Part shown: positions 42,191 to 53,417 of the stretch, piece after piece
Layout: each line of letters begins with the position of its first letter
How positions within the stretch are numbered: the stretch's first letter is position 1
Origin: Candidatus Moraniibacteriota bacterium
GTDB taxonomy: Bacteria; Patescibacteriota; Minisyncoccia; Moranbacterales; GCA-2747515
Assembly: GCA_942490825.1 (NCBI GenBank)
Contig: CALNYG010000015.1
Span: forward strand, 24,073 to 88,072
Direction: 5' to 3'
Length of the DNA: 64,000 nucleotides
Translations under genes and position numbers: made by a program
The notes under the pieces: generated by a model
Database searches by the model: none
Seen by the model: the letters and a program-made list of their open reading frames with translations, nothing else
What the model was told of the DNA's origin: nothing

Positions 42191-44134
42191 ATGAATGAGA
42201 GTAGTTTGGAAGATCATAGACGAAATAGGAAAATTTTAAATCCTCCTTTTTTGCATTATCTTCCTGATATGAAAACTTCATCATGGTTCAATGAAAGATT
42301 GCCTGAAATGATTTGGGCGGTTTTAGTAATGGGTAATTTAAATAGAGAAGATGCGCTTGATTTTTTTAGATATGTCATTACTTTTGTTGATGCTAATAGA
42401 GAATGTTCCGATATAACAATGACAGGTATTTCTAAACTATCAGATAGCAAAAGAGAATCTTTTATAAAGTATTTAACAAGTTATTCGGAAGAGGTGAATA
42501 ATATTCTTAATGTTTTATTATTATTTCCTGAGTTACCTAGTCTTAAAGAATGGAAAAATAATTTAAAAGAGAGTGTTGATTTAAATGATGATTGGAATAA
42601 GTTGATGGATGGCGTTGAGAAATCATTTTGGCATCAGTCTGAGGCTGCAACCGATTGTAGATGGATAAGTTTTTTGTGTAAGATTATTAGTGGAGAGATA
42701 AAGTTTTCTAGCTCAATTCCTGATATTGAAGAAACTTTAAAAGGTGTCTATGAATATCCAAATTATGGTGATATTAAACATGTTAATGGGTTTATTAGAG
42801 CTTCTGAAATAAGTTTTGTTTCAGGAAAGAAAGATAGCGAGTGGTCAAAGTATTTTTGGAAATATTGTTTTGATAATACTGGTTGTTTGCCAGAAGAGGC
42901 TGTGAGTGAAAAAATTAAAAATAGAAGAGAGGAACTATCAAAAGAAATAGAGATCGCAAGAAAAAGTCATATCAATGAAACTATTGAATTAAGAAATGAC
43001 CTTATTGATCATTTTTTTAAAACATCAGGAACATCATCGATAGACTCTCGTCATGAGGGTGTTTTTGGTATTACCCTGTATGCATTATCTCTTTATATTG
43101 AAACTATTTTTTATGGAACTTCTTTATCGATAACAGGAAGATTAGGGCTAAGATCTCTCGTTGAGACTTATATAACATTTGCTTATTTATTACAAAAAGA
43201 ATCTTTAGAGCCAAGAGTTTGGGATGATTACCGCAGCTATGGAATAGGACAAATAAAATTAGTGTATCTTAAGTTAAAGAAAATGAAAAAAGAGCCTGTT
43301 AGCTTTACGTTGGATGAAATGAGGTTTATTGTAAATGAAGATAAATGGATGGAATTTATTTCGATAAATTTAGGTCATTGGGATTCCGCAAACTTAAGAC
43401 AGATGAGTGAAGATGTTGGATTAAAAGATTTATATGATAAATATTATGGTTACACTTCAAATTTTATGCACGCAAACTGGGGCGCTGTAAGGGAGTCTGT
43501 TTATCAAAAGTGTTTAAATCCGTTACATCGTTACCATAGAGTTCCAGTGTATGATTTACCACTTATGTCGAGTACAATAGATGACGCTAAAGAAATTATG
43601 AATAATATACTTGAGTGCTTGTCTTTGGCATATCCTAAGTTTGAAAATAAATTAAAAAATAAACCTAAATTTAAACCCATGAACATAAAACTAGATTTCA
43701 CATCCTTCATCGACCAACCACACAACAAACAATGGTTCCAAAAAATAGCCGAACAAACCCTACAAGAAATAAATACCGAAAAATTAAAAAACAAAGAAAT
43801 AGAAATTAGCGTGGCAGTCGTCGATAACGAAGAGATCAAAAAACTAAACAACAACCTAAGAGAAAAAGACGCAGTAACCGATGTCCTTTCAATCGGAGAT
43901 TACAGCGATGAAAAAAATATCTTCACAGAAAAAGAAAATAACATTTTTCTCGGCGAAATAATCCTATGCTATGAATTTATCGAAAAATCTGCTAAAATAA
44001 ATGGGAAGACAGTTGAACATGAATTGTCTTATGTTTTTTCACATGGAATATTACATCTTTTAGGATATAAACATAGCGATGAAATGTACGCAATTCAAGA
44101 AAAAATCAGCGATAATATATCAATAGACGTTTAG
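42191..44134 (+). CDS. ybeY: YbeY endoribonuclease preceded in-frame by a 496-aa domain of unknown function
   Basis: The C-terminal 151 aa from Met497 (ATG 43679) form a full-length YbeY with 'HGILHLLGYKH'. No stop separates it from the upstream 496 codons. Confidence 0.75.
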   Translation: MNESSLEDHRRNRKILNPPFLHYLPDMKTSSWFNERLPEMIWAVLVMGNLNREDALDFFRYVITFVDANRECSDITMTGISKLSDSKRESFIKYLTSYSEEVNNILNVLLLFPELPSLKEWKNNLKESVDLNDDWNKLMDGVEKSFWHQSEAATDCRWISFLCKIISGEIKFSSSIPDIEETLKGVYEYPNYGDIKHVNGFIRASEISFVSGKKDSEWSKYFWKYCFDNTGCLPEEAVSEKIKNRREELSKEIEIARKSHINETIELRNDLIDHFFKTSGTSSIDSRHEGVFGITLYALSLYIETIFYGTSLSITGRLGLRSLVETYITFAYLLQKESLEPRVWDDYRSYGIGQIKLVYLKLKKMKKEPVSFTLDEMRFIVNEDKWMEFISINLGHWDSANLRQMSEDVGLKDLYDKYYGYTSNFMHANWGAVRESVYQKCLNPLHRYHRVPVYDLPLMSSTIDDAKEIMNNILECLSLAYPKFENKLKNKPKFKPMNIKLDFTSFIDQPHNKQWFQKIAEQTLQEINTEKLKNKEIEISVAVVDNEEIKKLNNNLREKDAVTDVLSIGDYSDEKNIFTEKENNIFLGEIILCYEFIEKSAKINGKTVEHELSYVFSHGILHLLGYKHSDEMYAIQEKISDNISIDV

Positions 44135-47473: not shown

Positions 47474-47488
47474 AATTTGTGATTTTTT

Positions 47489-47522
47489 AAAACTCCTTTG
47501 ATTTTTTCAGGGGAGTTTTTTG
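47489..47522 (+). terminator. rho-independent terminator after ftsZ
   Basis: AAAACTCC-N15-GGAGTTTT plus a T run. Confidence 0.65.
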
Positions 47523-47561
47523 TAGTTTTTTAAAGATGATTATGATATTATTAATATTGTA

Positions 47562-50500
47562 ATGTTTTTTAAATTTAAAATTATGAAAAAGTTTAGTGAT
47601 CAGTTTACTAATCAATATTCTTTGAGTAAAACTTTGCGGTTTGAGTTGAAACCTCAGAATGATTTGGCTAAAAATCTAAAGGATGTTTTAGAAAGGAAGG
47701 AAAATATTAATGTTGATGATTTTTTAAATCGATTAAAAGATATCCAGAAATTTTTTTTGGAGATCTTTATTTCTAATCCCTGTTCTCATAAACAAAATGA
47801 TTTAGATTATTTAAGTTTAGAATTTGTAAAAAATAGAAAGGTAAAATATGGTTGGTTTAGAAATTATACAAAAAGTGATTTTTATGATTGGAAAGAAAAG
47901 AATAATAAAGATGGTAAAGATAAAGAATATGATCTTACTGAAATTGATTATTTACCAAAAGAATTTTTAAGATGGCTAAATGAGTGGCAAAGCTTAACTA
48001 GTCAATTTGAAGAATTTTTAGAAAAACCTGAAGAAAGTCAGAATAGACGAAGAGAAATGGCGTTTATTATTCGCAGTTTCTCAAAGAAAGAAAATTTTGA
48101 GTTTATTAGAGAATTTTCCTGGGCTGTTTGTAATACAAATAAAACTGAAATAGATAGTAGAATTCAGGAATTTGTTGATTTGATTAGTATCACTGAAATA
48201 GATTTAAAAAAATGTGAAAATCTTTATTTACCTTTTCAATCGGCAGGTTTAAAAATTGCCAAAGCTAGTTTCAATTATTTTACATTAAATAAAGATTCAA
48301 ATGAGTACGGAGATTTGGAAATAAATAAAACAAAATTATTAAAAGAAAGACCATCTCAGCGATTAGTAGGTGAGAAAATAGAGTGGTTTTATCGAGATGA
48401 AAACAATAAAATAATTTCATTATTTAGTTTGGATAAAATTTTTTTGGAAAAAATAAATGTAAATGATGATATCAAAAATGCAAATAATATAGAGTCTTTG
48501 TATTCTATGATAAAAAAATGGAAAGCAGAACAGAAATCTAAGTTTAATGAAGCTGTCGCTGGCGATAAATTGACGGTTTATAATTTCAGAAAAGAATTTC
48601 CTCTTTTTGACACTATAAATGAAAACTTTGAGAAATTTTATGAATTAACTAAAAAACTCGATTTTGATCCAGAAAGGGGAAAAGAAATAGCACAAGAACG
48701 AGGAGAATTTTTTAATGCACCTAAAAAAATAGTTCAAACTCAAAATTATAAAGATCTTTGTGAGCTTTATAAAAAAGTTGCTTTAGCAAGGGGGCAAATT
48801 TTAGCAGAAATAAGAGGTTTGGAATATGAAAAAGTGGATGCAAAATTATTAGCTTATTGGAGTTTGATTTTAAAAGAAGATAATAAAAAATATTTAGTTT
48901 TGATTCCTAGGAGTAGTGATGATAATCATAAAAAGGCTAGAAAATTTGTAGAGGGAGAATTTAAAAATTCTGGTGGAGAAATAACACTTTATCATTTTAA
49001 ATCTTTAACTTTAAGAGCTTTAGAAAAATTGTGTTTTAAAAAGTTTGGAAATACATTTAGACCAAAATTAGAAAAAGCTGGATTAAAATTCCCTCAGTAT
49101 AAAGAAAAGCTATATGAAAATGAGATAGAAATGATTAAATTTTATCAGAATGTTTTGCTTTATGAAAAAAATAAAATAGAAGAAGGGTCTTTGGATTTGA
49201 TAGATTTTGGAGATTTAAGTAAATTTTTAGATAATAATTTTGATGATTTAAAAAGTTTTGAGTCAGAACTTGAAAAATCTTGTTATGTAAAAATTCCATT
49301 AAATACTTCTATTAAACAGAAAAATGATTTTATAGAAAAATTTGATGCAAAAGTTTTTGAGATAACGACTCAAAGCATTGAAGGAAAGAAAAAAGAAAAT
49401 AGACATGTAGAAATTTGGAGAAGTTTTTGGAGTGATGAAAACAAAGAAGAAAATCATGTCACAAGACTTAATCCAGAAATGAGTATTTTTTATCGGGAGG
49501 CACTGGATAAGAGGGTAGGATTGAAAAATAGATATTCAGAGGAGCGATTTACTTTAGCAACAACTATTACACTTAATGCCACAAATAAAAAATCTAATTT
49601 AGCGTTCAAAACTACTCAAGATATAAAAGATCATATTGATGAGTTTAATGATGACTACAAAGTTGGCGGAGAATGGTTTTATGGAATTGATCGAGGATTA
49701 AAAGAATTAGCAACGTTAAATGTTGTAAAATTTAGTGGTGAAAAAAATGAGTTTGGATCTTCTCAGTCAAAGGAGTTTGCTAAAATTAAAATTTGGAAAA
49801 TAAAAGATTTAAACAAATCAAAAGTTTTTATTCAAGAAGACGGATATGAAGTGCCTAGAATTATTGGAAATAATCCCTCTTACTTTTTTACAGATGATGG
49901 AAAGCCTGATTCAAAATTTTTTGAGGACGATATTGTTTCTAGCATTGATTTAACTCAAGCGAAGTTAATAAAAGGACATATTATTTTAAATGGAGATTCA
50001 AAAACATATCTAAAACTAAAAGAGGTTTCCGCAAAGAGAAGAATCTTTGAATTATTTTCGACTTCGAGAATTGATAAAGATTCTGAAATAGAAATTTCTA
50101 AATCAAAACTAACAATTACAAAATTTGATATTTATTGGTTTACGTCTCAACAAAAAAGAGAAAATCAACAAACTAAAATAAAAGAGGAAATTAAAAAATC
50201 TTTAAAAGAATATTTGGAAGATCTTGATAATAAAAATAAATTTCAAGATATTGAAACTATTGAAAAGATAAATCATTTAAGGGATGCAATAACTGCAAAC
50301 ATGGTGGGAATTATTGCTCATTTACAAAAGGAATTAAAAGGTTTTATTGCTTTAGAGAATTTAGATACAATAAGAGACGGTCAAAAAGATAAAATGATTG
50401 ATGAACATTTTAGTCAAAGTAATGAGGATATTTCTCGGCGTTTAGAGTGGGCTTTGTATCGTAAATTTGCAAATACTGGAGATGTTCCACCGCAGATAAA

Positions 50501-50768
50501 GCAATCAATAATTTTACGTGATGATTTTAAAGTTGATCAAATGGGAATTATTAAGTTTGTAAAAGTTGGCGGAACTAGTTCTAATTGTCCTAATTGCAAA
50601 AAAGAGAGTGGTAAAACAAATGGACATTTTGTTTGTGAATACAAAGAAAATAATTGTGATTTTGATTCAAGAGAAAATAAAAATTTATTAGAAGAAAATT
50701 TAAGTAATTCAGATGAAGTCGCGGCTTACAATGTGGCAAAAAATGCTTTTGAAAAAATTTATGAATAA
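47562..50768 (+). CDS. cas12a: compact Cas12a(Cpf1)-like type V effector (1,068 aa; 1,061 aa from the alternative ATG at 47583)
   Basis: N-terminus 'FTNQYSLSKTLRFELKPQ'. WED/processing segment 'NRHVEIWRSFW...VTRLNPEMSIFYRE'. RuvC-I 'FYGIDRGLKELA' (D710, nt 49689-49691), RuvC-II 'GFIALENLD' (E932, nt 50355-50357), RuvC-III 'SDEVAAYNVAKNA' (D1051, nt 50712-50714). 'GGTSSNCPNC...' replaces the 'FTSKICPVTGF' region. Followed directly by a V-A type array. Confidence 0.85.
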   Translation: MFFKFKIMKKFSDQFTNQYSLSKTLRFELKPQNDLAKNLKDVLERKENINVDDFLNRLKDIQKFFLEIFISNPCSHKQNDLDYLSLEFVKNRKVKYGWFRNYTKSDFYDWKEKNNKDGKDKEYDLTEIDYLPKEFLRWLNEWQSLTSQFEEFLEKPEESQNRRREMAFIIRSFSKKENFEFIREFSWAVCNTNKTEIDSRIQEFVDLISITEIDLKKCENLYLPFQSAGLKIAKASFNYFTLNKDSNEYGDLEINKTKLLKERPSQRLVGEKIEWFYRDENNKIISLFSLDKIFLEKINVNDDIKNANNIESLYSMIKKWKAEQKSKFNEAVAGDKLTVYNFRKEFPLFDTINENFEKFYELTKKLDFDPERGKEIAQERGEFFNAPKKIVQTQNYKDLCELYKKVALARGQILAEIRGLEYEKVDAKLLAYWSLILKEDNKKYLVLIPRSSDDNHKKARKFVEGEFKNSGGEITLYHFKSLTLRALEKLCFKKFGNTFRPKLEKAGLKFPQYKEKLYENEIEMIKFYQNVLLYEKNKIEEGSLDLIDFGDLSKFLDNNFDDLKSFESELEKSCYVKIPLNTSIKQKNDFIEKFDAKVFEITTQSIEGKKKENRHVEIWRSFWSDENKEENHVTRLNPEMSIFYREALDKRVGLKNRYSEERFTLATTITLNATNKKSNLAFKTTQDIKDHIDEFNDDYKVGGEWFYGIDRGLKELATLNVVKFSGEKNEFGSSQSKEFAKIKIWKIKDLNKSKVFIQEDGYEVPRIIGNNPSYFFTDDGKPDSKFFEDDIVSSIDLTQAKLIKGHIILNGDSKTYLKLKEVSAKRRIFELFSTSRIDKDSEIEISKSKLTITKFDIYWFTSQQKRENQQTKIKEEIKKSLKEYLEDLDNKNKFQDIETIEKINHLRDAITANMVGIIAHLQKELKGFIALENLDTIRDGQKDKMIDEHFSQSNEDISRRLEWALYRKFANTGDVPPQIKQSIILRDDFKVDQMGIIKFVKVGGTSSNCPNCKKESGKTNGHFVCEYKENNCDFDSRENKNLLEENLSNSDEVAAYNVAKNAFEKIYE

Positions 50769-50780
50769 AAAATTAATGTA

Positions 50781-50808
50781 TTGCAAAATATTTTAACTGG
50801 GGTAGAAT
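50781..50808 (+). promoter_or_regulatory. candidate CRISPR array promoter
   Basis: TTGCAA, 16-nt spacer, TAGAAT. The predicted start near 50815 is about 11 nt upstream of the first crRNA handle. Confidence 0.5.
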
Positions 50809-51092
50809 TGAAGTATGATGAATAAGATTTCTACTTTTGTAGATGAATGAGTTTTAATACTTCTCACGAGCTCAAACCGACCTATAAGATTTCTACTTTT
50901 GTAGATTGGATGTATGGCTAGGATTATGGCTTCTTAAACCAACCTATAAATTTCTACTTTTGTAGATATTACTTGGCATCCTATTTCGTATTCCTCAAAC
51001 CGATCTATAAGATTTCTACTTTTGTAGATGGGAACCATTCGGAGCCCTACGTATAACTCAAACTGACCTATAAGATTTCTACTTTTGTAAAA
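50809..51092 (+). CRISPR. type V-A CRISPR array: 5 repeats (35-36 nt), 4 spacers (26-27 nt)
   Basis: Repeats end at 50844, 50906, 50967, 51029 and 51092, a period of 61-63 nt. Consensus CTCAAACCGACCTATAAGATTTCTACTTTTGTAGAT with stem TCTAC/GTAGA. Spacers are at 50845-50870, 50907-50932, 50968-50993 and 51030-51056. The first repeat is conserved only over its 3' 23 nt, and the last ends GTAAAA. Confidence 0.92.
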
Positions 51093-51112
51093 AAGTTTTA
51101 ATAAGCTTATTC

Positions 51113-51272
51113 ATGTCATTTCCAGCTGAAGCCTGCCTGTTGTACAGCAGACAGGCGTAGCAAAAGGTAAGGGAATTTAGGATGATTAAGTCAGAAGTTT
51201 AATAATGAACTTTAGTTTACAAAATAACTTAGAGTTTAATTATCCTGGATCCCCGTCTTCACGGGAATGACA
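51113..51272 (+). mobile_element. MITE-like element family F, copy 2 (160 bp) with nested family E palindrome
   Basis: ATGTCATTTCC...GGGAATGACAC termini homologous to 23061-23197. Internal GCCTGCCTGTTGTACAGCAGACAGGC at 51131-51156. Starts 20 nt after the last CRISPR repeat. Confidence 0.7.
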
Positions 51273-51336
51273 CAATAATAAAAAATTTATTAAAATAGCA
51301 TAACAAAAAACGCAGTAACAAACCGCGTTTTTTTCT

Positions 51337-53417
51337 TTACTCCAAATGCTTAACACCCTCAAATTCAGAAATGATCTTTTTCAATTCAGGAAATTTATCC
51401 AATTTAGAATCCTGTTGTAAAATCTCTTTAGCTTTTTCACGAGCAATCGTAACCAATTTAACATTTGTAATATTCCTCATCGCACCATCAGACAAACCAC
51501 TCTGACGGCGACCAATAAACTCACCTGGACCTCGTAACTCTAAATCAATATTAGCCAATTTAAAACCATCACTATATTTTTCCATCGCCTGCAAGCGTTC
51601 ATTGTGTCCATGTTCACTAAACAAAAAACAATAAGATTGATGGTCACCACGACCAACTCTACCCCTAAATTGATGAAGTTGAGAAAGACCAAAACGTTCC
51701 GCATTCTCAATAATCATGATGGTTGCATTCGGCACATCAACACCAACTTCAATCACCGAAGTGGAAATTAAAATATCAATTTTCTTATTTTTAAAATTAC
51801 GCATCAATTCTTCTTTCTCTTTCGATTTCAATCTTCCGTGCAGTAATCCTAATTTTAGCTCAGGAAAAACTTCTTTTTGCAATCTTTCGTGTTCGGTGAC
51901 AGCAGCTTTAACTCTTTTATCGCTTCAGATTCTTCAACTAAAGGCAAAATAATGTAAGCTTGTCGTCCAGTCTTAACTTCTTTTTTTATAAAATCGTAAA
52001 CAACTTTTTGATTTTTTGAAAAAACTGTTTGAGTTTTAATTTCTTTTCGGTTCATCGGTTTTTCATCTAAAACAGAAACATCTAAATCTCCAAAAAGAGC
52101 TAAAGCAAAAGTTCGAGGAATTGGAGTAGCGGTCATAGTTAATAAATGCGGAGTTAATATTTTTTTATTACCATCATTTTTATGGGTGATGGCAGCTCGT
52201 TGAGCGATACCAAAACGATGTTGTTCATCTACAACAACTAAACCTAAATCTTTAAATTTTATATCTTCTTGAATTAAAGCATGAGTTCCAATAATTAAAT
52301 TTAATTTTTTATTTTCAATTAATTCTAACATTTTCGGTCGTGTAGTTTTATTTACTAAGGCAGGGTGCGATCCGTACATTTTATAAGAGCCAGTTAAAAG
52401 TCCAATTTCAAAATCATAATCTTTGAAAAATTCTAAAAAAGTATTAAAATGTTGAGTGGCTAAAACTTCGGTCGGAGCTAGAATGGCAACTTTAAAATTC
52501 TTATCAATACATTGAAGAGCGGCAATGGCAGCGACTAAAGTTTTTCCAGCACCAACATCACCGTTGAGCAATCTATTCATCGGAGTAGCTTTTTCTAAAT
52601 CGATTAAAATTTGAAAAGAACTTTTTCGTTGTGCATTGGTTGGCTCGAAGGGTAATTTTTCAATAAATTTTTGAATCAACTTTTTATCTAATTTTATTTC
52701 GGGAGATTTTTGTTCAGAATAATTTAAGCGAATCATTAAAGCGGTGAGTTGTAAAATAAACATTTCTTCGAAAGCAAATTTTTTCTGTGCTAAGATTACT
52801 TCCATTTTACTTTTGGGGAAATGAATCATTTGTAAAGCAGTTTTTAAATTTGGTAGATGTAGTTCCTCTAAAATTGATTGGGGGATAGGATCCGGCAGGT
52901 CAATTTCTTTGCTTAATATTTCTTGAATTTGCCATCGAATCCATTTTGAAGTTAAACCATATGTCTCAGGGTAAATAGGTACGAGACGTCCTGTATTTGT
53001 GGGTGTGCGACCAGCTCGTTCTATTTCAGGTGCAACAAAAGACATCTCATCGTTTTTATATTGAACTTTGCCACTAATACGAACTTCAGTATTAACTGGA
53101 AAAGATTGACCGATATATTTTTGATTAAACCAGATTATTTTTATTATTCCTGATTCATCTTCGACAATTGCTTCGGTTAATAACATTCCTCTGTTGCGAG
53201 TGCGAATGGTTTTTATATCGGCAATAGTTCCAATGATGGTTGATTCAGTATCGAGTTGGAGTTGGTTGATTTTATATAATTTAGAATAGTCTTCGTAGCG
53301 AGTGGGGAGGTGATAAAGAAAATCTTTGACAGTAAATAAATTTAATTTAACTAATCTTTTTAGATAGTTTTCTTGGACTCGGGGTAAATCTTCTAATTTT
53401 GTGTTTAAAGTTATCAT
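51337..53417 (-). pseudogene. recG: ATP-dependent DNA helicase RecG, split by a 1-nt frameshift
   Basis: N-terminal ORF has the wedge/OB domain, 'GDVGAGKT' and 'VVDEQHRFG'. The C-terminal ORF has 'LLHGRLKSKEKE' and 'QLHQFRGRVGRG'. The frames switch at 'KEL|KAAV', an AAA run at 51907-51909. Confidence 0.85.

What the first reader, a model, noticed from the sequence alone, without database searches (positions are those of the whole stretch)
49689..50714. Re-proportioned nuclease lobe: Nuc insert collapsed to a Cys4 zinc ribbon and RuvC-I to RuvC-II interval expanded
In FnCas12a the RuvC residues are D917/E1006/D1255, gaps of 89 and 249 aa with the Nuc domain in the second gap. Here the gaps are 222 aa (D710-E932) and 119 aa (E932-D1051). 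After 'GIIKFVKVGGTSS' (Fn 'GIIYYVPAGFTSK'), the sequence goes directly to C1009-P-N-C1012-x12-C1025-x6-C1032. It then rejoins the Cas12a alignment at 'DFDSREN...SDEVAAYNVAK' (Fn 'FFDSRQAP...DADANGAYHIGLK'). Canonical Cas12a has no such CxxC...C...C element there, whereas TnpB and many other Cas12 types carry a zinc-ribbon target-nucleic-acid-binding module. I could not find the Nuc-domain arginine needed for target-strand cleavage in AsCas12a (R1226). The extra ~130 aa between RuvC-I and RuvC-II (about 720-900) has no Cas12a counterpart I recognise.
Basis: partly seen in the sequence, partly recalled or inferred. Interest (0 to 1): 0.8.

Follow-up and report, generated by a model that had tools for sequence, protein, structure and literature searches.

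The report
Compact Cas12a3 CRISPR nuclease, solo locus
The oddly proportioned nuclease half of this Cas12a-like protein is real, but it is the already published layout of the Cas12a3 family (RNA-triggered CRISPR enzymes that cut tRNA tails), and this gene is a new, fairly ordinary member from a Patescibacteria genome.

Summary
The ORF at 47562-50768 (+), 1068 aa, has RuvC residues D710/E932/D1051. The gaps between them are 221 and 118 residues, against 92 and 254 in LbCas12a. A C1009-x2-C1012-x12-C1025-x6-C1032 element sits where Cas12a has its Nuc domain.

This is not a new architecture. It matches the zinc-ribbon (ZR) plus insertion-domain layout published for Cas12a2 (2023) and for Cas12a3/Cas12a4 (Nature 2026; NAR 2026). 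The protein is 47-49% identical to the published ca1Cas12a3 and Rb2Cas12a3 and groups with them (neighbour-joining bootstrap 97). Its AlphaFold2 model matches solved Cas12a3 structures best (Foldseek E 1e-48, TM 0.63-0.65).

A four-spacer CRISPR array with the Cas12a-type handle lies directly downstream. The window has no cas1, cas2, cas4 or partner cas12a. The module sits in a variable slot between ftsZ and recG.

One real difference from the solved structures: the tRNA-loading domain of Ba1Cas12a3 (106 aa) is reduced here to a roughly 40-aa, three-strand core. About four fifths of the clade shares this compact form, including the tRNA-cutting Sm3Cas12a3.

The likely function is crRNA-guided, RNA-triggered RNA cleavage, probably of tRNA 3' tails. 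DNA nicking or cutting is unlikely.

Verdict: new member of a known kind; low interest.

The parts
47562..50768 (+). cas12a3-clade effector gene, 1068 aa (an alternative start at M8 is possible)
   Evidence: ORF. The only PDB sequence hits are Cas12a3 (E 1.7e-64 and 1.3e-62). It is 47% identical over its full length to the published ca1Cas12a3. The neighbour-joining tree places it in that subclade. Foldseek top hits are 21we and 9hlx.
49689..49691 (+). RuvC-I catalytic Asp (D710, in the GIDRG motif)
   Evidence: Invariant in 29 homologues. Aligns with Ba1Cas12a3 D712.
49719..50261 (+). Insertion domain (about residues 720-900), beta-rich followed by helices.
   Evidence: 221 residues lie between D710 and E932, against 92 in LbCas12a. 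AlphaFold2 secondary structure has pLDDT mostly 77-92 here. PMC12851939 and PMC13594972 describe an insertion domain at this position.
50079..50159 (+). Compact counterpart of the tRNA-loading domain (about residues 840-866): three short strands carrying the conserved I-Y858-W motif
   Evidence: BLAST to Ba1Cas12a3 breaks here, leaving query 832-871 and Ba1 847-966 unaligned. MAFFT puts Y858 in the column of Ba1 Y922. AlphaFold2 predicts strands at 843-845, 849-852 and 855-859. The anchor-to-anchor segment is 77 aa here and 156 aa in Ba1.
50355..50357 (+). RuvC-II catalytic Glu (E932, in the ALENLD motif)
   Evidence: Invariant. Aligns with Ba1Cas12a3 E1032.
50574..50669 (+). Zinc-ribbon (ZR) domain, about residues 1005-1036, with C1009, C1012, C1025 and C1032
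   Evidence: Sequence; conservation. Aligns with the ZR of solved Cas12a3 proteins. pLDDT is 77-83.
50712..50714 (+). RuvC-III catalytic Asp (D1051, in the NSDEVAAYNVAK motif)
   Evidence: At least 90% conserved. Aligns with Ba1Cas12a3 D1137.
50781..50808 (+). Promoter-like site directly upstream of the first repeat (possible array leader promoter; weak evidence)
   Evidence: TTGCAA-16-TAGAAT, 9 of 12 matches. The number of such sites in the region is no higher than in shuffled sequence.
50809..51092 (+). CRISPR array: 5 repeats of 35-36 nt ending in ATTTCTACTTTTGTAGAT, and 4 spacers of 26-27 nt. The 5' half of repeat 1 is divergent and the 3' end of repeat 5 is degenerate (GTAAAA).
   Evidence: The same TCTAC-N3-5-GTAGAT handle occurs in arrays in 48 of 70 related loci.

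Best explanation
The region is the C-terminal nuclease (NUC) lobe of a type V effector of the published Cas12a3 clade.

Shown here:
- The RuvC triad D710/E932/D1051 is intact.
- A roughly 180-aa insertion domain lies between RuvC-I and RuvC-II.
- A roughly 30-aa Cys4 zinc ribbon lies between RuvC-II and RuvC-III, in place of the Cas12a Nuc domain.
- A four-spacer array with the Cas12a-type 5' handle lies directly downstream on the same strand.

Inferred from characterised relatives (PMC12851939, PMC13594972):
- The protein processes and binds crRNAs from this array.
- It recognises complementary RNA next to a purine-rich flanking sequence.
- It then opens the groove between the zinc ribbon and the insertion domain, so that the single RuvC site cuts bystander RNA. 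[quoted passage not shown] The result would be halted translation and growth arrest of the infected cell.

Difference from the solved structures: this protein lacks the helical part of the tRNA-loading domain (tRLD), which carries Ba1 K881, K885 and R902. It keeps only the three-strand core with a conserved Tyr (Y858). It therefore belongs to the compact form, represented experimentally by Sm3Cas12a3.
For: Family assignment:
- The only PDB sequence hits are Cas12a3.
- P0010 is identical to ca1Cas12a3. P0009 has the same length and the same first 160 residues as Rb2Cas12a3. The query is 47-49% identical to both over its full length.
- In the neighbour-joining tree the bootstrap is 97 for the subclade and 78 for Cas12a3 against Cas12a2/Cas12a4.
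- Foldseek ranks Cas12a3 first (E 1e-48, TM 0.63-0.65), then Cas12a2 (E 2e-28, TM 0.45), then Cas12a (E 2e-17, TM 0.3).

Architecture: catalytic and Cys columns are conserved across 103 family sequences. The ZR aligns with the ZR of solved Cas12a3.

CRISPR link: the array is adjacent. The same handle occurs in 48 of 70 related loci. Relatives carry cas4-cas1-cas2.

Function:
- Ba1, Sm3 and ca23 Cas12a3 cleave tRNA tails after RNA recognition and do not cleave DNA.
- Sm3Cas12a3 has the same compact segment (78 aa, against 77 here). It aligns with the query at 33% identity without a break through the insertion region.
- The PFS-contacting Ser (Ba1 S469) aligns with the invariant S481.
Against: - No member of the 13-sequence subclade containing this protein, ca1Cas12a3 and Rb2Cas12a3 appears among the enzymes tested in the two papers read.
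- Ba1 R902 has no counterpart here. Ba1 N924 aligns with F860. The T-arm loop residues R251/K256/K257 align with E/I/S, in a weakly aligned region.
- The Y858 = Y922 equivalence rests on one MAFFT alignment, and that column is not Tyr in most long-form relatives.
- PMC12851939 itself reports that Sm3 differs from Ba1 in cut site and substrate tolerance.
- The tree included only one Cas12a4 sequence, and support for the whole Cas12a3 clade is moderate (78).
- No protospacer was found for any spacer, so targeting of RNA from mobile elements is unverified for this locus.
Confidence: 0.75

Rival explanations
1. It is an RNA-triggered nuclease of the Cas12a2/a3/a4 group, but its bystander substrate is not specifically tRNA tails. 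Without the helical tRLD it could cut RNA broadly (as Cas12a4 does) or prefer some other structured RNA.
For: The Ba1 tRLD residues that stack the terminal adenosine are absent or replaced: R902 has no counterpart and N924 aligns with F860. The segment is 79 aa shorter than in Ba1. ApCas12a4, which cleaves RNA including its target, also has a short segment of 60 aa. The paper notes mechanistic differences within the clade.
Against: Sm3Cas12a3 has the same compact form and still cleaves tRNA tails. P0028, 53% identical to ca23Cas12a3 over ca23's first ~640 residues, is compact too. Sequence similarity to Cas12a4 is limited to the last 190 residues (E 2.5e-7), whereas all Cas12a3 references align over the full length.
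Confidence: 0.2
2. One reading: a DNA-targeting Cas12a variant whose shrunken Nuc module changes strand cleavage, giving a nickase or an altered double-strand cutter.
For: The N-terminal motif, the crRNA handle and the RuvC motifs are Cas12a-like. Cas12a is the third-best structural match.
Against: Sequence similarity to Cas12a is marginal (E 7e-7 to 0.005), and TM is only about 0.3. The protein nests in a clade whose tested members do not cut DNA and do not induce SOS. Half of the related loci encode a separate canonical Cas12a next to the Cas12a3 gene, which suggests that the two proteins have different roles (inference).
Confidence: 0.03
3. A decaying remnant: an orphan effector and fossil array that no longer function.
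For: The window has no cas1, cas2, cas4 or partner cas12a. The array has only 4 spacers, repeat 1 is divergent and repeat 5 is degenerate. No spacer match was found. The neighbouring recG is split into two ORFs.
Against: The 1068-codon ORF is intact, and every invariant or near-invariant family residue, the D/E/D triad and the Cys4 are present. Each of the four spacers is preceded by an intact 19-nt handle. Eight related loci with at least 5 kb on both flanks are likewise solo. The paper's table also lists solo Cas12a2/Cas12a3 genes on long contigs.
Confidence: 0.05

Closest known systems
ca1Cas12a3 and Rb2Cas12a3 (uncharacterised orthologues listed in Dmytrenko et al., Nature 2026, PMC12851939)
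   Same: 47-49% identity over the full length; same subclade (bootstrap 97). They share the compact insertion, the CPNC...Cx5-6C zinc ribbon, the IYW motif and the same repeat handle.
   Different: Their loci carry cas4-cas1-cas2 and 27 handle matches. L002 and L003 also carry a canonical cas12a upstream. The window has none of these genes and only 4 spacers.
Sm3Cas12a3 (Smithella sp. M82; experimentally shown to be an RNA-triggered tRNA-tail nuclease)
   Same: 33% identity, aligned without a break across the insertion domain. The compact tRLD-equivalent segment is 78 aa there and 77 aa here. D/E/D, Cys4 and the I-Y-aromatic motif are shared.
   Different: It belongs to a different subclade and is 150 aa longer in the REC lobe. 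Its second Cys pair is CxxC, not Cx6C.
Ba1Cas12a3 (PDB 9hlx, 9hm4-6) and BaCas12a3 (PDB 21we, 21wj)
   Same: Best sequence and structure matches in the PDB. The domain order is the same, the ZR aligns residue for residue, and the catalytic triad is the same.
   Different: Only 26-31% identity. Their RuvC-I to RuvC-II interval is 319 aa, against 221 aa here. Their 106-aa tRLD (three strands plus four helices, with K881, K885, R902 and N924) is reduced here to the strand core. That long form occurs in only 22 of 103 clade sequences.
Cas12a2 (SuCas12a2, PDB 8d49/8d4a/8d4b; MpCas12a2)
   Same: ZR in place of Nuc, an insertion domain of similar size (RuvC-I to RuvC-II gap of 199-235 aa), Cas12a-type crRNA, and RNA triggering.
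   Different: Weak sequence similarity (E 7e-19 to 3e-11), TM 0.45, and about 200 aa longer. Cas12a2 shreds DNA as well as RNA through aromatic-clamp residues, which the paper reports as absent from Cas12a3.
Cas12a4 (ApCas12a4)
   Same: ZR, D/E/D and a short insertion; RNA-activated RNA cleavage.
   Different: Only the last ~190 residues align (E 2.5e-7). It falls outside the clade in the tree.
Canonical Cas12a (Fn, As, Lb, KaCas12a)
   Same: N-terminal motif, WED/crRNA-handle motifs, RuvC motifs and repeat hairpin.
   Different: The gaps are 92-97 and 254-263 aa. Cas12a has a full Nuc domain and no insertion domain, and it targets DNA. KaCas12a still has the four Cys around its Nuc insert.

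Membership tests
Cas12a3 (clade as published in PMC12851939) | Phylogenetic placement with named Cas12a3 sequences, apart from Cas12a, Cas12a2 and Cas12a4 | tested here: met
   47-49% identity to ca1Cas12a3 and Rb2Cas12a3. Neighbour-joining bootstrap is 97 for the subclade and 78 for the clade. Caveats: a distance tree, and only one Cas12a4 reference.
Cas12a3 (clade as published in PMC12851939) | Three RuvC motifs with the catalytic D/E/D | tested here: met
   D710/E932/D1051 align with Ba1Cas12a3 D712/E1032/D1137.
Cas12a3 (clade as published in PMC12851939) | Zinc-ribbon domain between RuvC-II and RuvC-III instead of a Nuc domain | tested here: met
   Cys4 is present, conserved and aligned to the ZR of solved structures. 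Metal binding itself was not tested.
Cas12a3 (clade as published in PMC12851939) | Insertion domain between RuvC-I and RuvC-II | tested here: met
   A 221-aa interval against 92 aa in LbCas12a, confidently modelled.
Cas12a3 (clade as published in PMC12851939) | tRNA-loading domain as defined in Ba1Cas12a3 (residues 855-960; R902, Y922 and N924 contact the CCA tail) | tested here: inconclusive
   Only a ~40-aa three-strand core is present. Y858 aligns with Y922, R902 has no counterpart, and N924 aligns with F860. The validated Sm3Cas12a3 is equally compact, so the full tRLD does not define the whole clade.
Cas12a3 (clade as published in PMC12851939) | REC2 loop that binds the tRNA T-arm (Ba1 R251, N253, K256, K257) | tested here: inconclusive
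   The aligned residues are E280, N282, I285 and S286. The alignment of this region is unreliable.
Cas12a3 (clade as published in PMC12851939) | Association with a CRISPR array carrying the Cas12a-type repeat handle | tested here: met
   Array at 50809-51092 on the same strand. The same handle is found in 48 of 70 related loci.
Cas12a3 (clade as published in PMC12851939) | RNA-triggered cleavage of tRNA 3' CCA tails, with no DNA cleavage | not testable with these tools
   This is a biochemical property, inferred only from Ba1, Sm3 and ca23.
Cas12a3 (clade as published in PMC12851939) | Absence of the Cas12a2 aromatic-clamp regions | not tested
   The clamp residues were not available in the text I read, so they could not be mapped.
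Canonical Cas12a (type V-A) | Nuc domain of about 150-250 aa between RuvC-II and RuvC-III, and a short RuvC-I to RuvC-II interval with the bridge helix | tested here: not met
   The gaps are 221 and 118 aa here, against 92 and 254 aa. No Pfam Cas12a domain hit. Foldseek TM is about 0.3.
Cas12a2 | Closest sequence and structure similarity to SuCas12a2/MpCas12a2 | tested here: not met
   E 7e-19 to 3e-11, against E 0 to 1e-126 for Cas12a3 references. It is a separate branch in the tree.
Cas12a4 | Closest similarity to ApCas12a4 | tested here: not met
   Only a C-terminal 193-aa alignment, E 2.5e-7. It lies outside the clade.

The most novel reading that the evidence does not exclude
The compact form, which makes up about four fifths of the Cas12a3 clade and includes this protein, lacks the helical tRNA-loading module seen in both solved structures. 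It may select its bystander substrate in another way, for example through the three-strand core with the I-Y-W motif together with the zinc ribbon. In the untested CPR subclade to which this protein belongs, the preferred substrate might not be the tRNA CCA tail at all.
Probability: 0.2. Interest if true: 0.5.

Novelty: new member of a known kind. Interest (0 to 1): 0.18.

Why it matters
The finding adds little for discovery. The zinc ribbon in place of Nuc and the insertion domain have been described structurally for Cas12a2 (2023) and Cas12a3 (2025-2026).

Three modest points of value remain:
- It is a short (1068 aa) Cas12a3 from a Patescibacteria genome, in a minimal two-part locus of effector plus four-spacer array. 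That is a convenient natural minimal system for testing.
- Across about 100 family sequences, the tRNA-loading domain seen in both solved structures is the minority state. This raises the question of how compact enzymes such as this one position their substrate.
- KaCas12a shows that the Nuc domain of Cas12a sits inside a retained Cys4 ribbon, which bears on how the Cas12a nuclease lobe evolved.

Tried and rejected
- Pfam and NCBIfam scans of the protein gave no meaningful hit. The family is not yet in those libraries.
- An Rfam scan of the array region found nothing above noise.
- The first 20 nt of each of the four spacers had no exact match in viral contigs. No match with up to 6 mismatches exists elsewhere in the window. 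Targets and the flanking motif therefore remain unknown.
- An exact look-up of the protein's contig failed, and the cluster look-up gave no name or accession. The host lineage was instead inferred from FtsZ, which is 82% identical to a Candidatus Moranbacteria FtsZ.
- The window's own genome is not among the GTDB species representatives scanned (best locus 51% identical).
- My first family-wide table took the longest ORF of each locus. In about half of the loci this picked the neighbouring canonical Cas12a. I redid it with ORFs classified by BLAST.
I therefore could not measure Cys-Cys geometry or superpose the compact core on the tRNA-bound structure 9hm4.
Full report
**The object**

The finding lies in the last third of a 1068-aa ORF at 47562-50768 on the + strand. 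The protein starts with the Cas12a-like motif FTNQYSLSKTLRFELKPQ. Even so, it has no Pfam or NCBIfam hit.

**Check of the observation**

- In alignments with 28 homologues and with reference sequences, D710, E932 and D1051 fall in the catalytic columns of Ba1Cas12a3 (D712, E1032, D1137), LbCas12a and KaCas12a.
- The intervals between them are 221 and 118 residues here, against 92 and 254 in LbCas12a and 97 and 263 in KaCas12a.
- The sequence GTSSNCPNCKKESGKTNGHFVCEYKENNCDFDS gives C1009-x2-C1012-x12-C1025-x6-C1032.
- All four Cys columns are filled in 89 of 103 family sequences, and D/E/D is complete in 98.

**What it is**

- A sequence search of the PDB returns only two proteins, both Cas12a3: 21we (E 1.7e-64) and 9hlx, Ba1Cas12a3 (E 1.3e-62). 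Neither Cas12a nor Cas12a2 appears at E up to 1.
- With the C-terminal 379 residues alone, HMMER aligns the Cys4 element with the zinc ribbon of both solved proteins.
- Two papers describe this family. Dmytrenko et al., Nature 2026 (PMC12851939), and an NAR 2026 paper (PMC13594972) report Cas12a3 as RNA-triggered nucleases that cut the 3' CCA tails of tRNAs.
- Their domain plan is REC1, REC2, WED, PI, RuvC, a zinc ribbon (ZR) and an insertion domain. Part of the insertion domain forms a tRNA-loading domain (tRLD), Ba1 residues 855-960.

**Clade membership**

- The homologue search found 29 relatives.
- P0010 is 100% identical to the published ca1Cas12a3.
- P0009 has the length and the first 160 residues of Rb2Cas12a3.
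- The query is 47-49% identical to both over its full length. The exact sequence is not in the paper's FASTA file.
- BLAST against the references gives: Sm2Cas12a3 E 5e-126, MG60_9Cas12a3 E 1e-120, Ba4Cas12a3 E 2e-110, Sm3Cas12a3 E 7e-101, Ba1Cas12a3 E 2e-60, MpCas12a2 E 7e-19, SuCas12a2 E 3e-11, ApCas12a4 E 2.5e-7 (C-terminus only), KaCas12a E 7e-7.
- A neighbour-joining tree on 962 columns puts the query in a 13-member subclade with ca1Cas12a3 and Rb2Cas12a3 (bootstrap 97). That subclade sits inside a Cas12a3 clade separated from Cas12a2 and Cas12a4 (bootstrap 78).
- An AlphaFold2 model (mean pLDDT 79.9, pTM 0.60) matches Cas12a3 structures best (E 1e-48 and 4e-46, TM 0.63-0.65). Cas12a2 comes next (E 2e-28, TM 0.45), then Cas12a (E about 1e-17, TM about 0.3).

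**Where it differs from the solved Cas12a3 structures**

- The BLAST alignment with Ba1Cas12a3 breaks exactly at the tRLD. Query 19-831 pairs with Ba1 4-846, and query 872-1063 pairs with Ba1 967-1149.
- Between two conserved anchors (query R826 and N904) the query has 77 residues and Ba1 has 156.
- In the multiple alignment, Ba1 carries two lineage-specific inserts on either side of a shared strand. The first insert holds K881, K885 and R902.
- Query Y858, in the I-Y-W motif, falls in the column of Ba1 Y922. N924 aligns with F860. R902 has no counterpart.
- The model shows three short strands (843-845, 849-852, 855-859) and a short helix. NAR 2026 describes the tRLD as three antiparallel strands plus four helices.
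- My reading, which is inference, is that the strand core is shared and the helices are an addition in the Ba1 lineage.
- Across 103 clade sequences the segment length is bimodal. It is 68-117 aa in 81 sequences and 143-187 aa in 22 sequences. Of those 22, 20 are closest to Ba1Cas12a3 among my references. The Tyr is present in 72 of the 81 compact forms.
- Sm3Cas12a3 cleaves tRNA tails, with a slightly shifted cut site and a stricter need for CCA. It is compact (78 aa) and aligns with the query without a break through this region.
- P0028, 53% identical to the tested ca23Cas12a3 over ca23's first ~640 residues, is compact too.

**The zinc ribbon in context**

- The first Cys pair, CPxC, is nearly universal in the family.
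- The second pair is CxxC in most members and CxxxC in Ba1. In the query's subclade it is Cx5-6C.
- KaCas12a, listed as a canonical Cas12a in the paper, has Cys at all four aligned columns around a 163-aa insert.
- This suggests that the Nuc domain of Cas12a is an insertion within an older ribbon, rather than the ribbon being a collapsed Nuc. That is inference.

**The locus**

- Directly downstream, on the same strand, lie five repeats (50809-51092) ending in ATTTCTACTTTTGTAGAT, with four spacers of 26-27 nt.
- The 5' half of the first repeat is divergent and the last repeat ends in GTAAAA. Each spacer is still preceded by an intact handle.
- The same handle pattern forms arrays in 48 of 70 related loci from GTDB genomes.
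- In the Roizmanbacteria relative, the gene is followed by Cas4, Cas1 and Cas2 (Pfam E 3e-10, 1e-48 and 3e-16) and then by the array.
- The window has no homologue of these proteins (tblastn E above 2) and no other ORF above 734 aa.
- Of the related loci, 41-46 of 70 carry cas1, cas2 or cas4, and 35 of 69 carry a canonical cas12a. Eight loci with long flanks are solo like this one.
- No spacer matched viral contigs or the window itself.

**Host and insertion site**

- The neighbouring FtsZ is 82% identical to a Candidatus Moranbacteria FtsZ. Other named hits are Moranbacteria, Parcubacteria and Patescibacteria.
- In that relative the gene order is ybeY, dagK, ftsA, ftsZ, a 1224-aa N6_Mtase/Eco57I/Methylase_S protein, then recG on the opposite strand.
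- In the window the same slot between ftsZ and recG holds cas12a3 and its array.
- The slot therefore holds different defence genes in related genomes. That it is an exchange site is inference.

**Mechanism**

Shown:
- an intact RuvC triad;
- a conserved Cys4 ribbon;
- an insertion domain;
- an adjacent array with the Cas12a-type handle;
- membership of the published Cas12a3 clade.

Inferred from the tested relatives:
- the protein matures and binds crRNAs;
- it recognises complementary RNA with a purine-rich flank (Ba1 S469, which contacts that flank, aligns with the invariant S481);
- it then cuts bystander RNA at the single RuvC site, most likely tRNA 3' tails, and so arrests growth.

I put about 0.9 on clade membership and RNA-triggered RNA cleavage. 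I put about 0.55-0.6 on tRNA tails as the preferred substrate, because the tail-stacking residues of Ba1 are missing and no member of this subclade has been tested.

**Verdict**

The interpretation as a new Cas12a design is superseded by published work. The gene is a new member of a known kind, in a minimal solo locus. The only open point worth a specialist's attention is how the compact majority of Cas12a3 enzymes selects its substrate.

Noticed in passing
window 51337-53417 (- strand): recG is split into two overlapping ORFs. ORF 51855-53417 (520 aa) carries the wedge and DEAD domains. ORF 51337-51882 (181 aa) carries Helicase_C and RecG_dom3_C. The Moranbacteria relative has a single 694-aa RecG. 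This is probably a frameshift or an assembly error.
   Followed up: partly
window 47474-51336, compared with L071 9354-13160 and L072 6060-9866: The interval between ftsZ and recG holds cas12a3 plus its array in the window. In a relative whose FtsZ is 82% identical, the same interval holds a 1224-1238-aa N6_Mtase/Eco57I/Methylase_S enzyme. It looks like a small variable defence slot.
   Followed up: partly
L002, L003, L005, L008, L010, L054 and others (35 of 69 related loci): A canonical cas12a gene (1200-1500 aa, with a Nuc-type interval) lies next to cas12a3, usually directly upstream on the same strand. This includes the Ba1Cas12a3 locus (L054). The window has no such partner.
   Followed up: partly
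KaCas12a sequence (supplement of PMC12851939), aligned to query columns 1009/1012/1025/1032: This canonical Cas12a from Kaiserbacteria keeps CxxC...CxxC (TCPEC ... NCPCC) around its 163-aa Nuc insert. Some Cas12a proteins therefore still carry the zinc-ribbon cysteines.
   Followed up: partly
window 42191-44134 (+): A 647-aa ORF fuses a DUF5677 region to a C-terminal YbeY endoribonuclease domain. In the Moranbacteria relative, YbeY is a separate 153-aa protein preceded by a DUF5655 protein.
   Followed up: no
P0028 and P0023 (homologues): These database proteins have Trp where relatives have conserved Gly (for example LNWD for LNGD, and WIIEFVKTWWTSS). This indicates genes from code-25 lineages (UGA = Gly) that were translated with the wrong table.
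   Followed up: no
window 51100-51300: The spacer between the array and recG contains G+C-rich inverted repeats (for example GCCTGCCTGTTGTACAGCAGACAGGC). Rfam gave only sub-threshold hits there.
   Followed up: no
window 1-64000: GC skew is strongly positive across nearly the whole window (about +0.3), at roughly 30% G+C.
   Followed up: no
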